IMG/VR virus record: IMGVR_UViG_2778261278_000009
Length of the DNA stretch: 36,154 nucleotides
From: a virus
Lineage: Duplodnaviria; Heunggongvirae; Uroviricota; Caudoviricetes
Direction: 5' to 3' (one strand)
This document shows, in pieces, positions 6,001-9,000 of this stretch (its first letter is position 1; every line of letters starts with the position of its first letter). The position numbers were made by a program.

Positions 6001-9000
6001 ATCCGGCATGTACAGGATTCATTGTCCTGCTCAAAGTCCATGCCATCAAACTGCTGGTTTTCATTGATGATGCGGGACCAGCCATCAACGCCCACCACCG
6101 GAACAATGCCGTTCTGCTTATCAGGGAAGGCGTAAATTTCTTTCGTCCACGGATTAAGGCCGTACTGGTTGGCGACGATCAGCAATGCGATGAACTGCGC
6201 ATCGCTGGCATCACCTTTAAATGCCGTCTGGCGAAGAGTGGTGATCAGTTCCTGTGGGTCGACAGAATCCATGCCGACACGTTCAGCCAGCTTCCCTGCC
6301 AGCGTTGCGAGTGCTGTACTCATCCGTTTTATACCTCTGAATCAATATCAACCTGGTGGTGAGCAATGGTTTCAACCATGTACCGGATGTGTTCTGCCAT
6401 GCGCTCCTGAAACTCAACATCGTCATCAAACGCACGGGTAATGGCTTTTTTGCTGGCCCCGTGGCGTTGCAAATGATCGATGCATAGCGATTCAAACAGG
6501 TGCTGGGGCAGGCCTTTTTCCATGTCGTCTGCCAGTTCTGCCTCTTTCTCTTCACGGGCGATCTGCTGGTAGTGACGCGCCCAGCTCTGAGCCTCAAGAC
6601 GATCCTGAATGTAATAAGCGTTCATGGCTGACCTCCTGAAAATGGCTGTGAAAATATCGCCCGCGAAATGCCAGGCTGATTAGGAAAACAGGAAAGGGGA
6701 TTAGTGATTCAGGCCGTTACCGCGTCCGTCGAGAAAAACTTCCACGAGCAAATCACGGGTATAAGTGCGCTCGATGCCGCGATGCAGATAAAGCCGTCCG
6801 CGTAAATTAGCTGATGCAGTCCAGGTACCATCTTTGTGTTTGACCAGCATTCCTGGCATGACCGCACCTCGATTAACGGTCTGCGTTCCATAATGTTGAT
6901 GAACCATAAAAACTCCTGCCCGTAAGCTGGGCTGCTGAACATATAGAGACTTCTGCGCGTATTCAGGCGGTGGATGGCCGCCGGTTGTCATAACTAAGCC
7001 GCCTCGTTGAAGCGACTAAGGTATGAAATGTTGAGTTAATTTCAGCTGGTCACACCGACGTTCACGCGTCCGTTTCACCCCTCGCACTCCCCGAAGCCTG
7101 CTGAAATTCAAACTGCGGATCTAAGCGGTCATCGCAACGGTGAATCAGGTAGTTGCCGTATCGTTGTGTTGTTGCGATGAACTTATTTAAAACTATAGTT
7201 GTTTTATTGGTTGTTTTAGATATAACTGGTTGTATTTAGGATGGATTTATTTTGTGACTTGAATCGCATAGCGATAACTGAAGCGAGGTTATGGTGGTTT
7301 TTTTAACGGTGTGTGATGAGGGGAGGGCAAAAGAAAACCCGGCACGGTGACCGGGATTCTTACGCCGTTAGGTAAAGATATTATTGCGGTGGCTTAATAT
7401 TACTACCTAGAGCAAAGATAGGAATTAGTTCTTTACTGAATGAGCACAATGCCCAGTTGATAATTTTTAATTGGTACTACCCATGCTTCCTATATGTCTG
7501 CGGCATGCTCCCAATAACCTTACCGAAGATGAACACCCGGTTCATCTCGTCTTTCTCGATCGGGTCCCACGGTGAGTAGCTTTTGTTATCAGAGATGACC
7601 AGCAGCTTATCCTTCATCATTTGCAGGCGCTTTACATGGGCTGTGTCGTCGTACAGAAACGCATAGATACCATCACCGTCGAAAGATTTAACTGTGATAT
7701 CAACGAACAGCAGATCACCTGGTTCGATCGTTCCTGACATGCTGTCACCACGCACGTTAATGATGCGGATATTTTCCGCCTTCCTACCATCGAACATGTG
7801 ACGAGCATCGTCAAACGAGTACTCAACCGAGCGTAGAACTTCTACAAACTCACGGTTGATGACTCCCGGCCCAGCACTGACTTCTATATCAAGAACGTCA
7901 ATCTTGAAGTATTTGGAATGGCTGACAGTTGATTGTATTGGTTGCACTGTACTGTCTGACATATTTCCAACGCCAGAAGATAACCATTCTGCGCGCACAC
8001 CCAAAGCGTTCGCGATCTCCACGATTTTAGTTGTTTGATTAGCTTTCCCTGTTTCGATTTTCTGAATAGCAGCCTGGCTAACCCCGACCAAATCCCCAAG
8101 CGCCTTTTGTGTAAGGCCTCGCGCTAATCTGGCTTCTTTAAGTCTTTCTGAGAGTGTTGTTTTCATATTCCAAATGTACAACCAAGGTTTTATTCCATCA
8201 AACGAAAATGGTTGTTGACTAAAAACAACCATAGTTTTAATCTTGATTCAAATTAACCACGGAGGTTGTTATGAACCCAGCTATCAAAACAGCGATCAAT
8301 ATCGTTGGTTCACAAAAGAAACTGGGCGCTGCTTGCGAAGTTTCACAGCAGGCCGTCTATAAGTGGCTTCACAACAAAGCAAAGGTATCCCCTGAACATG
8401 TCGGCAGCATTGTTACGGCTACTGGTGGAGTAGTGAAGGCATACCAGATTCGCCCGGATCTTCCGAAGTTGTTTCCACACACCGAAAAGAACGCAGCTTA
8501 AATTTCCATTTCACGCTCTTTAACAATAAGCAATCAACTTAACAGTCAATTCAAACTAAAGGAGTCAATTATGCAACCACTTACATACCAACAGACTAGC
8601 GGATTTAGCCCGACTGCGGTGATAAATCGTTCTCAAACAAAACAGGTGCCAGGCCACGAAAAAATCCGTGATGCCGTCCGCGCCTGGTCGGCTGTAGATA
8701 ATCAGGATGTCGTTGCCACACTCATTGTGAATGAGTATCGGGAGCAGGGCGGCGGCACCATCGATTTCCCTGATGATGTCAGCCGTGCACGCCAGAAGCT
8801 GTTCCGCTTCCTCGATAACAAATTCGATTCTGAAAAATACCGAAATAACGTGCGTGAACTGACCCCGGCAATTCTGGCGGTACTACCGCTGGAATATCGC
8901 GGTTACCTGGTTGAGCAGGATAGCTTCATGGCTAGGTTGGCTGAAATGGAAAAGGAACTCAGTGAGGCAAAACAGGCTGTCATTCTCAACGCACCACGCC

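What the first reader, a model, noticed from the sequence alone, without database searches (positions are those of the whole stretch)
6992..7182. No N-like antiterminator gene; structured about 190-nt early-left leader with two long inverted repeats (candidate put-like cis RNA)
Between the cI terminator/left operator region and the first leftward ORF there is no ORF that could encode an N or Nun protein. Instead the leader contains two perfect inverted repeats (10 bp at 7129-7138/7171-7180 and 9 bp at 7038-7046/7100-7108), each enclosing a GC-rich 30-55 nt core. Lambdoid phages lacking N (HK022) use cis-acting put RNAs in exactly this position to make RNA polymerase termination-resistant. A boxA-like element without boxB is also present downstream of cro (8513-8524). 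This suggests RNA-based or otherwise non-canonical early antitermination.
Basis: partly seen in the sequence, partly recalled or inferred. Interest (0 to 1): 0.6.

Follow-up and report, generated by a model that had tools for sequence, protein, structure and literature searches.

The report
Untranslated leader of prophage early-left operon
The flagged stretch is the roughly 270-base untranslated start of the leftward early transcript of a very common E. coli lambda-like prophage that has no N gene; its hairpins are real, but it is not a relative of the known put antiterminator RNAs and its function is still untested.

Summary
A 10-bp perfect repeat turns up in only 1.2% of shuffles. No credible ORF lies between pL and the first leftward gene, and a perfect boxA follows cro.

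The stretch is the 5' leader of the pL transcript (about +1 at 7178). It runs to kil, whose real start is ATG 6907, not 6991. The leader occurs in 2224 of 5426 complete E. coli genomes and in at least three immunity types, none with an N gene.

The put interpretation fails every test I could run:
- A covariance model of eight put RNAs scores known puts at 60-95 bits and finds nothing in the leader.
- There is no second copy rightward.
- None of 39 proposed base pairs shows a compensatory change.
- Folding energy is ordinary (z = -0.87).
- Diversity is about half that of neighbouring synonymous sites, so constraint is mild.

The best-supported feature is a helix pairing the transcript's first 8 nt, whose arms persist while its loop is swapped.

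Most likely this is a post-initiation control and stability leader guarding toxic kil. Two conserved terminator-like hairpins downstream keep a new kind of cis antiterminator possible (about 15%).

In this window a rare 24-bp deletion removes the pL -35 element.

The parts
7326..7355 (-). Intrinsic terminator ending the cI (and, in relatives, moron) transcript: CCCGGTCACCGTGCCGGG followed by TTTTCTTTTG
   Evidence: Terminator scan. Conserved in relatives. In relatives, toxin-antitoxin or SIR2 cassettes sit between cI and this terminator.
7184..7260 (-). pL/OL region. The -10 is TTAAAT/TAAATA at 7190-7184. A 24-bp deletion at about 7205/7204 removes the -35 TTGACG and the operator palindrome AACAACTTTTGTTGTT found in relatives.
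   Evidence: Alignment A1. The promoter layout parallels pR (TTGACT-17-TAATCT, read). Only 1 of 2224 matching E. coli records is at least 99% identical to the window; the others sampled are 24 nt longer.
7178..7178 (-). Inferred transcription start (+1, A or G). Immunity types A and B become homologous exactly here.
   Evidence: Inferred from the -10 positions of three promoter types and from the point where homology begins. Not mapped experimentally.
7129..7180 (-). The 5'-terminal 8 nt AUCGCAAC (7178-7171) pair with GUUGCGAU (7138-7131), closing a C-rich loop of about 32 nt.
   Evidence: The arms are kept while the loop is replaced (type C) or lengthened (L144, L095). The common +1 A/G polymorphism keeps a wobble pair.
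7029..7144 (-). Conserved leader core shared by all immunity types: the 3' arm of helix 1, GACCGCUUAGAUCCGCAG, and the long hairpin
   Evidence: Alignments A5 and A6, 94-98% column identity. Homology in type C begins at 7144. HK225 homology ends at 7028.
7039..7107 (-). A stem of 9 plus 2 bp (7107-7097 with 7049-7039) encloses a G-rich 47-nt insert.
   Evidence: helix 99.8% paired, no compensatory change. The A/G change at 7102 keeps a G-U pair. RNAalifold on 64 sequences prefers a different local fold here.
7054..7073 (-). Inner hairpin ACGGACG / CGUCGGU with loop CGUGAA
   Evidence: 100% paired. The A/G polymorphism at 7073 (24 of 55) keeps a G-U pair.
6997..7017 (-). Hairpin 3, AGUCGCUUC-AAC-GAGGCGGCU, in the kil-proximal part of the leader
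   Evidence: 99.4% paired. The G/A change at 6999 turns U-G into U-A.
6908..7028 (-). kil-proximal leader. It travels with kil and is also found upstream of kil in phage HK225, where other genes precede it.
7016..7111 (-). 31-aa arginine-rich TTG ORF (MNFSRLRGVRGVKRTRERRCDQLK...), in frame with kil. Judged not to be coding.
   Evidence: The stop is TAG in 39% and CAG in 61% of relatives. Segregating sites fall 8:5:5 across codon positions. Variants with 5-nt and 1-nt insertions exist. No PHROG match.
6701..6907 (-). kil (FtsZ inhibitor, 68 aa), the first gene of the operon, with SD AGGAG at 6917-6913
   Evidence: PHROG 294, E = 1e-38. RefSeq start. Common polymorphisms fall almost entirely at third codon positions.
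8514..8526 (+). Perfect consensus boxA CGCTCTTTAACAA downstream of cro, with no boxB hairpin
   Evidence: Linked to immunity type A only.
4782..4796 (-). t1: terminator-like hairpin after exo, weakened here by one substitution. Relatives have GAGGCTGGGTATTTCCCGGCCTT followed by TCTGTT...
   Evidence: present in 25 of 25 relatives, about 2.34 kb downstream of the leader.
1967..1985 (-). t2: strong terminator-like hairpin AGGGAGCTACAGGCTCCTT followed by TTTTATTATT, upstream of the small phrog_285 ORF (1363-1641) and the integrase gene
   Evidence: present in 25 of 25 relatives, about 2.94 kb downstream of the leader.

Best explanation
The region is the untranslated 5' leader (about 271 nt, 7178 to 6908) of the pL transcript that encodes kil, gam, bet and exo. 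It belongs to a widespread lambdoid prophage family that has no N gene. It is not a put RNA.

Most likely it controls the transcript after initiation rather than modifying RNA polymerase. Three inferred steps:
1. The first 8 nt pair with a segment about 45 nt downstream. A stem-loop at the very 5' end is the classical arrangement that shields an E. coli mRNA from 5'-end-dependent decay (established knowledge; inferred here).
2. A long, untranslated stretch follows, made of C-rich, G-poor tracts on either side of a G-rich hairpin. Leaky transcripts could be stopped or processed there by Rho or a ribonuclease before they reach the toxic FtsZ inhibitor kil (inferred, by analogy with the NusG/Rho silencing of kilR in the Rac prophage).
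3. The kil-proximal 120 nt belong to the kil module.

Shown here: the position of the leader, the repeats, the absence of coding signal, the mosaic boundaries, the mild constraint, and the failure to match put. Inferred: the start site and every functional step.
For: Position and gene order: cI, cI terminator, pL, leader, kil, gam, bet, exo.

Homology between immunity types A and B begins exactly at the inferred +1. Type C joins at +35.

The helix 1 arms persist in five 5' variants whose loops differ in sequence or length. Other genera have a comparable hairpin starting at +4 (GACAAC/GUUGUC).

All four common polymorphisms inside helices 1, 3, 5 and 6 keep pairing through G-U on the leftward RNA only. 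Changes that break pairs are rare, seen in 1-3 of 55 sequences.

Paired columns have fewer segregating sites than unpaired ones (9 of 64 against 33 of 124), though the permutation test gives p = 0.17.

The leader is not coding.

Composition: C/G ratio is 1.1-2.0 over 7182-7100, 0.3 over 7112-7043, and up to 2.5 over 7062-7003.

The kil-proximal 120 nt also precede kil in HK225, away from any promoter.

Precedent: expression of kilR in Rac is held down by NusG-dependent termination (PMC5793797).
Against: No experiment bears on this leader. The start site is inferred.

Diversity in the leader (0.026-0.032) is only about half that at kil third codon positions (0.055) and similar to the kil-gam spacer (0.037). 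Most positions may therefore be close to neutral.

There is no compensatory base-pair change. Folding energy is ordinary. RNAalifold does not recover the long hairpin.

A Rho entry site cannot be predicted reliably from composition.

This explanation does not say how the phage gets past the two conserved terminator-like hairpins downstream.
Confidence: 0.42

Rival explanations
1. The leader is a new class of cis-acting processive antiterminator RNA. It would work like HK022/HK639 put without being related to it: the nascent leader folds, stays with RNA polymerase, and carries it through t1 and t2 to the genes downstream of t2, which end with the integrase gene.
For: No N or Nun gene is present, including in plaque-forming phages with this leader (controls).

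The element starts at +1 of pL and its 5' end is paired, as in putL (PMC9378689).

Two intrinsic-terminator-like hairpins are conserved in 25 of 25 left operons.

The GenBank record of HK639 annotates only a putL-like element in the 5 kb I fetched around its immunity region. I did not inspect its right operon, so a single left-hand element may have a precedent.

The leader is kept across at least three immunity types.
Against: The put model gives no match and Rfam has none.

There is no covariation, folding energy is unexceptional, and constraint is mild.

kil homologues in other genera sit directly behind pL with unrelated leaders, some only about 75 nt long.

Type C replaces the first 34 nt.

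A model of the leader core finds nothing in other lambdoid phages.

The terminators have not been shown to work. The excision and integration genes may have their own promoters.
Confidence: 0.15
2. The leader is an evolutionary remnant: a former nutL-N leader from which boxB and N were lost. Its present conservation would reflect recent common descent and mosaic exchange, with no special function beyond being a 5' UTR.
For: Diversity is near that of another spacer and half the synonymous level.

A 22-nt stretch, CAGCAGGCTTCGGGGAGTGCGA, matches lambda's N leader CAGAAGGCTTTGGGGTGTGTGA at 18 of 22 positions in the same relative place, p about 0.013 by shuffling.

CCGCTTAGA lies where lambda has boxA.

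There is no covariation.
Against: The similarity to lambda is short, and the leader-core model does not detect lambda.

Perfect repeats of 10 bp are rare by chance.

The helix 1 arms persist while loops are swapped.

Common polymorphisms all preserve pairing.

Phages rarely carry 270 nt of useless sequence in thousands of copies (general expectation, not tested).
Confidence: 0.25
3. The G-rich core encodes protein: either a 20-31-aa arginine-rich peptide, or an arginine-rich N-terminal extension of Kil (125-139 aa, as some records annotate it). This would act as a miniature N-like RNA-binding factor.
For: The ORF is in frame with kil and open in 61% of relatives. It contains KRTRERR, which recalls the arginine-rich motifs of N proteins (from memory). 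15% of relatives have ATG instead of GTG at 7078. Records for PhiR47_2 and Perceval annotate the long form.
Against: A TAG stop is present in 39%. Segregating sites fall 8:5:5 across codon positions in the ORF, whereas inside kil third-position diversity (0.055) is 6-37 times that at positions 1 and 2. Insertions of 5 nt and 1 nt break the frame. No protein-family match. kil in other genera starts at the MVHQ codon behind a strong Shine-Dalgarno sequence.
Confidence: 0.04

Closest known systems
put antiterminator RNAs of HK022 (putL, putR) and HK639 (putL-like)
   Same: Lies immediately downstream of the early-left promoter in a lambdoid phage with no N. Its 5' end is base-paired. More than one hairpin. 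Terminators lie further down the operon.
   Different: No sequence or structure match to a model of eight puts, which scores 60-95 bits on known puts and nothing on the leader. The put family alignment shows compensatory changes in 8 of 14 pairs; this leader shows 0 of 39. The hairpins are larger and lie about 20 nt apart. There is no rightward copy.
Lambda nutL and N leader (boxA, boxB, then a long hairpin before N)
   Same: Same position: a long untranslated structured leader of pL. One 22-nt stretch is 18 of 22 identical to the lambda leader segment that follows boxB. From memory, that segment forms the 5' strand of the lambda N-leader RNase III stem.
   Different: The leader has no boxB hairpin and no consensus boxA. 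No N gene. The leader-core model does not find lambda.
rrn-type boxA / Nus-factor antitermination
   Same: A perfect CGCTCTTTAACAA lies downstream of cro, without boxB. From established knowledge, this is the arrangement in ribosomal RNA operons and CRISPR leaders.
   Different: It is in the right operon, not in the flagged leader. It is confined to one immunity type.
NusG/Rho silencing of kilR in the Rac prophage
   Same: A toxic FtsZ-inhibitor gene in a prophage early-left region, kept silent at the level of transcript elongation (PMC5793797).
   Different: A different kil gene in a different context. Rho dependence here is only inferred from an untranslated, partly C-rich leader.
5'-terminal stabiliser stem-loops of E. 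coli mRNAs (for example the ompA 5' UTR)
   Same: The helix begins at nucleotide +1, with no unpaired 5' tail.
   Different: A large 32-nt loop. Any effect on half-life has not been tested.

Membership tests
put antiterminator RNA (HK022/HK639 type) | Sequence and secondary structure matching the conserved two-stem put fold (GAACGGCGCG ... GUCGG ... GGCGGGUUCAGGAUGAACGGCAAU) | tested here: not met
   Model R1, built from 8 puts, scores HK639 putL at 95 bits, HK022 putL at 94 and HK022 putR at 60.5. With filters off it gives no match at E up to 10 in 6908-7182 or in the related leaders.
put antiterminator RNA (HK022/HK639 type) | Located downstream of an early promoter, upstream of the first gene and of terminators | tested here: met
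   The leader starts at the inferred +1 of pL. t1 and t2 are conserved downstream.
put antiterminator RNA (HK022/HK639 type) | Base pairs supported by compensatory changes among relatives | tested here: inconclusive
   0 of 39 pairs show a change on both sides, and the score equals the shuffles. The relatives are 94% identical, so power is low.
put antiterminator RNA (HK022/HK639 type) | Promotes terminator read-through in cis without a phage protein, and is blocked by RNA polymerase beta-prime zinc-binding-domain mutations | not testable with these tools
   Requires reporter fusions and rpoC mutants.
nut site (N-dependent antitermination) | boxA followed by a boxB hairpin in the leader, plus an N protein with an arginine-rich motif | tested here: not met
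   No boxA within 3 mismatches in the leader. No boxB-like hairpin. No PHROG match to N or Nun in the window ORFs scanned, including the 31-aa leader ORF, while the lambda N and HK022 Nun controls are detected.
rrn-type boxA element | Consensus boxA (YGCTCTTTAACAA) in the transcript | tested here: met
   A zero-mismatch match at 8514-8526 in the right operon only. Not part of the flagged leader.
ops / RfaH-dependent operon | GGCGGTAGnnTG on the non-template strand of the leader | tested here: not met
   No match within 2 mismatches on the leftward strand of the leader.
Any Rfam family | Covariance-model match | tested here: not met
   Over 6000-9500 only chance-level matches appear (E above 1, far below gathering scores).

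The most novel reading that the evidence does not exclude
The conserved pL leader is a new, put-unrelated class of cis-acting antiterminator RNA. It would let an N-less lambdoid prophage family, present in about 40% of complete E. coli genomes, read through the two conserved terminators of its left operon.
Probability: 0.13. Interest if true: 0.8.

Novelty: new member of a known kind. Interest (0 to 1): 0.38.

Why it matters
Prophages with this leader sit in 2224 of 5426 complete E. coli genomes, including ST131, O157, LF82 and NC101. The family also includes plaque-forming phages. These phages have lambda-like early operons but no N gene, no Nun gene and no put RNA, and their left operon keeps two terminator-like hairpins.

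How they time early gene expression appears not to have been described: my literature searches found nothing on it. The leader is the obvious place to look, so it is a cheap and well-defined target for a reporter experiment.

If it only stabilises or attenuates the kil transcript, it is an ordinary 5' UTR. It would still be relevant to how lysogens tolerate a toxic FtsZ inhibitor.

Tried and rejected
1. Rfam scan of 6000-9500 at a permissive threshold: only chance matches.
2. put homology: a covariance model from 8 puts found nothing in the leader or its relatives.
3. A second, rightward copy of the leader: short-word BLAST of the leader against the window found only chance 10-12-mers.
4. boxA in the leader: none within 3 mismatches. 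ops/RfaH element: none.
5. Coding potential of the arginine-rich ORF and of the ATG-6991 extension of kil: rejected on codon-position pattern, stop codon and indels.
6. Covariation: the count of structure pairs and RNAalifold gave no compensatory changes.
7. More distant homologues of the core: blastn against 50,697 phage records finds only the family. A covariance model of the core finds nothing in lambda, HK022, HK639, HK225 or seven loci from other genera.
8. Strong purifying selection on the leader: my first impression of near-invariance weakened once recombinant kil alleles were removed. The leader evolves at about half the synonymous rate.
9. Link between the leader and the boxA: rejected, because boxA is confined to immunity type A.
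10. The Pas small RNAs of pathogenic E. coli: unrelated loci.
11. King et al. 2011 on new put RNAs could not be read because it is not held. I rebuilt the put alignment from GenBank records instead.
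Full report
WHAT IS THERE

The window is a lambdoid prophage. On the leftward (minus) strand the order is:
- a LexA-type cI repressor (ORF 7477-8232);
- its intrinsic terminator (7355-7326);
- an operator/promoter region;
- the flagged stretch;
- kil (PHROG 294), gam, bet and exo.

On the right are a Cro-like gene (8271-8501), a CII/YdaT-like gene, O, P, ren, and a Q-like antiterminator at 15691-16089.

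A perfect 10-bp repeat with a loop of 60 nt or less appears in 1.2% of dinucleotide shuffles of the leader, so the repeats are not chance. The whole-leader folding energy is unremarkable: z = -0.87 on the leftward strand and -0.04 on the other. A zero-mismatch consensus boxA lies at 8514-8526 and is unique in the window.

HOW COMMON IT IS, AND WHERE THE TRANSCRIPT STARTS

The 316 bases around the leader match 2224 of 5426 complete E. coli genomes. They also match 16 full-length phage records representing about 15 distinct phages, including PhiR34_1, Turner, Perceval (the LF82 prophage), 4A7 and Lambda_4C10. RefSeq annotates nothing under the match in the records listed. I collected 125 copies from IMG/VR and the phage records.

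The copies fall into at least three immunity types with unrelated operators and promoters:
- type A: TTGACG, then 17 or 18 nt, then TTAAAT/TAAATA;
- type B: TTGATA, 17 nt, TATTAT;
- type C (O157): TTGACT, 17 nt, TATTGT.

Types A and B become homologous exactly at the purine that lies 7 nt after the -10 element. I take that as +1 (window 7178, RNA beginning A/G-UCGCAAC). Type C joins at +35. The start site is inferred, not mapped.

The first gene starts at ATG 6907 behind AGGAG, not at 6991. RefSeq uses that start. kil homologues in Citrobacter, Kluyvera, Silvania, Enterobacter and Pseudocitrobacter begin with the same Met-Val/Ile-His-Gln codons (ATGGTTCATCAG or ATGATTCATCAG) behind their own Shine-Dalgarno sequences. 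The leader is therefore about 271 nt.

NO N GENE, AND NO HIDDEN PROTEIN

The window ORFs I scanned (most of those of 80 aa or more in the early regions, plus the 31-aa leader ORF) match no N or Nun family, while lambda N and HK022 Nun are found as controls. The annotated genomes of PhiR34_1 and Perceval list no N either.

The only ORF in the leader is a 31-aa arginine-rich TTG ORF (7111-7016) in frame with kil. Four observations count against its being coding:
- Its stop is TAG in 39% and CAG in 61% of relatives, which is why some records annotate a 128-139-aa Kil.
- Segregating sites fall 8:5:5 over the three codon positions. Inside kil, third-position diversity is 0.055 against 0.0015 and 0.0086 at positions 1 and 2.
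- Variants with 5-nt and 1-nt insertions break the frame.
- No protein family matches it.

IS IT A PUT RNA?

I located HK022 putL from the residue numbers given in the cryo-EM paper (PMC9378689). I then gathered putL and putR from HK022, phiEt88, CobraSix, S9-5, HK639 and PdC23. That alignment shows compensatory changes in 8 of 14 pairs.

A covariance model built from it scores HK639 putL at 95 bits, HK022 putL at 94 and HK022 putR at 60.5. With filters off it gives no match at E up to 10 in the leader of the window or of its relatives. Rfam has nothing. No second copy of the leader, and no put-like element, lies in the right operon. Membership in the put family is therefore tested and not met.

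IS THE STRUCTURE SELECTED?

On 55 distinct leaders, 39 proposed pairs are 95.5% paired. None shows a change on both sides, and the covariation score equals the shuffles. The outermost pair of repeat 2 is unpaired in 46 of 55, and one pair of a small inner hairpin is unpaired in 37 of 55. RNAalifold prefers a different local fold to the long hairpin.

The sequences are 94% identical, so the test has little power. They were also gathered with exact 25-28-nt anchors, which biases the sample towards conservation.

Weak positive signs:
- The four common polymorphisms inside helices 1, 3, 5 and 6 all keep pairing through G-U, and only on the leftward RNA. Changes that break pairs are singletons.
- Paired columns have fewer segregating sites than unpaired ones, 9 of 64 against 33 of 124, but the permutation test gives p = 0.17.

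The best-supported element is helix 1. Its 5' arm is kept (AUCGCAAC, AUUGCAUC or AUCACAAC) while the loop is replaced in type C or lengthened to 41 nt in two rarer types. Leaders from three other genera (Kluyvera sp., Silvania, Enterobacter) begin AUCGACAAC...GUUGUC, a 6-bp hairpin starting at +4.

HOW CONSTRAINED IS IT?

After removing four recombinant sequences, nucleotide diversity is:
- 0.032 in the core;
- 0.026 in the kil-proximal part;
- 0.055 at kil third positions;
- 0.037 in the kil-gam spacer;
- 0.0015 and 0.0086 at kil positions 1 and 2.

The leader thus evolves at about half the synonymous rate, which is mild constraint. The near-invariance that first strikes the eye is mostly recent common descent.

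The leader is also mosaic. The first 34 nt go with the immunity region in type C. The last 120 nt go with kil and also precede kil in HK225, behind other genes. Divergent kil alleles join an unchanged leader within a few bases of the kil start codon.

IS ANTITERMINATION NEEDED AT ALL?

Two intrinsic-terminator-like hairpins are conserved in all 25 left operons long enough to examine. One lies after exo. A stronger one lies before the TraR-like, excision and integration genes.

On the right, boxA is present in 46 of 48 type A phages and in none of 53 type B or C phages. In type B, cro and the CII-like gene are only 24 nt apart. The boxA and the leader are therefore independent. PhiR34_1 has no strong rightward terminator before Q. 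This window has one at 13275-13300.

Some way of passing t1 and t2 is a fair expectation. Nothing shows that the leader provides it.

MOST LIKELY MECHANISM

I read the leader as a post-initiation control region of the early-left transcript.
- A stem-loop that begins at +1 is the classical protection against 5'-end-dependent decay (established knowledge).
- The leader is long, untranslated, and partly C-rich and G-poor on both sides of a G-rich hairpin.
- It precedes a toxic FtsZ inhibitor. Expression of kilR in Rac is kept down by NusG-dependent termination (PMC5793797).

All of these steps are inferred. I put about 0.42 on this reading, 0.25 on a largely functionless remnant, 0.15 on a new kind of cis antiterminator, and 0.04 on a coding role.

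The remnant idea draws on a 22-nt stretch that is 18 of 22 identical to the lambda leader segment that follows boxB, p about 0.013. From memory, that segment is the 5' strand of the lambda N-leader RNase III stem. A model of the leader core does not detect lambda.

THIS WINDOW IN PARTICULAR

Compared with nearly all relatives, this window lacks 24 bp between direct repeats of ATAAAACAAC. The deletion removes the pL -35 hexamer and an operator palindrome. Only one of the 2224 matching genome records is at least 99% identical to the window. Whatever the leader does in the family, it is probably poorly transcribed here.

Noticed in passing
window about 7204/7205 (pL region 7184-7260): A 24-bp deletion relative to nearly all relatives, between direct repeats of ATAAAACAAC. 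It removes the pL -35 hexamer TTGACG and the operator palindrome AACAACTTTTGTTGTT. Only 1 of the 2224 matching E. coli genome records is at least 99% identical to the window. It may be a promoter-down, domesticating mutation that silences kil.
   Followed up: partly
window 8514-8526: A perfect consensus boxA (CGCTCTTTAACAA) after cro, with no boxB. It is present in 46 of 48 type A right operons and absent from types B and C. In type B only 24 nt separate cro from the CII-like gene.
   Followed up: yes
window 7016-7111 (minus strand): An arginine-rich 31-aa ORF (…RGVKRTRERRCDQLK…) in frame with kil. The stop is TAG in 39% and CAG in 61% of relatives, so some GenBank records annotate a Kil of 128-139 aa. 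The variation pattern says it is not coding.
   Followed up: yes
window 1967-1985 and 4782-4796 (minus strand); L153 1984-2002 and 2577-2599: Two intrinsic-terminator-like hairpins inside the left operon, conserved in 25 of 25 relatives. How an N-less phage reads through them is unexplained.
   Followed up: partly
L002 3289-4717; L003 3315-4888; L005 1049-2650: In relatives, defence or toxin-antitoxin cassettes (GevTA, HipA with its annotated antitoxin, a SIR2-family protein) sit between cI and its terminator. This is the position rexAB occupies in lambda. The window has no such insert.
   Followed up: no
window 7082-7103 and lambda L152 (minus strand, just downstream of nutL): CAGCAGGCTTCGGGGAGTGCGA is 18 of 22 identical to lambda CAGAAGGCTTTGGGGTGTGTGA, which lies just after boxB (from memory, the 5' strand of the lambda N-leader RNase III stem). 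p is about 0.013 by shuffling. This may be a trace of descent from an N-type leader.
   Followed up: partly
window 7141-7151 and 9554-9658: The loop of helix 1 contains TACCTGATTCA. Its complement occurs three times about 47 nt apart inside the O gene, where the copies look like origin iterons. BLAST puts the 11-mer match at chance level (E about 2), and most relatives have CACCTGATTCA.
   Followed up: no
L033, L087, L103, L028 (kil region): Three leaders differing from the consensus at only 3-6 positions are joined to a kil allele that differs at 36-37 positions. One is joined to an unrelated sequence in place of kil. The change-over falls within a few bases of the kil start, so the leader and kil are separable modules.
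   Followed up: partly
window 13275-13300 (+): A strong terminator-like hairpin (AATCCCCTCAGATGCTCGAGGGGATT followed by TTTATG) in the rightward operon between the anti-repressor gene and ninB/Q. It lies just before a DNA polymerase III theta-like ORF. PhiR34_1 has no equivalent.
   Followed up: no
window 2222-4709: An accessory block in the left arm: two rightward ORFs (one methyltransferase-like) and a leftward 414-aa PAPS-reductase-like gene. PhiR34_1 lacks this block; there lambda orf63 and orf61 homologues follow exo.
   Followed up: no
L008-L014 (Citrobacter, Kluyvera, Silvania, Enterobacter), about 75-250 nt upstream of kil: kil sits directly behind pL-like promoters in these genera too, with no N gene. 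Their leaders are unrelated to the E. coli one but share GUUCCGCNAGCC(U)GGCGACAAGG. Several also have a 16-bp hairpin (GAGCUUCGCGGUGGUG / CACCACCAGCGAAGUUC) immediately before the kil ribosome-binding site.
   Followed up: partly
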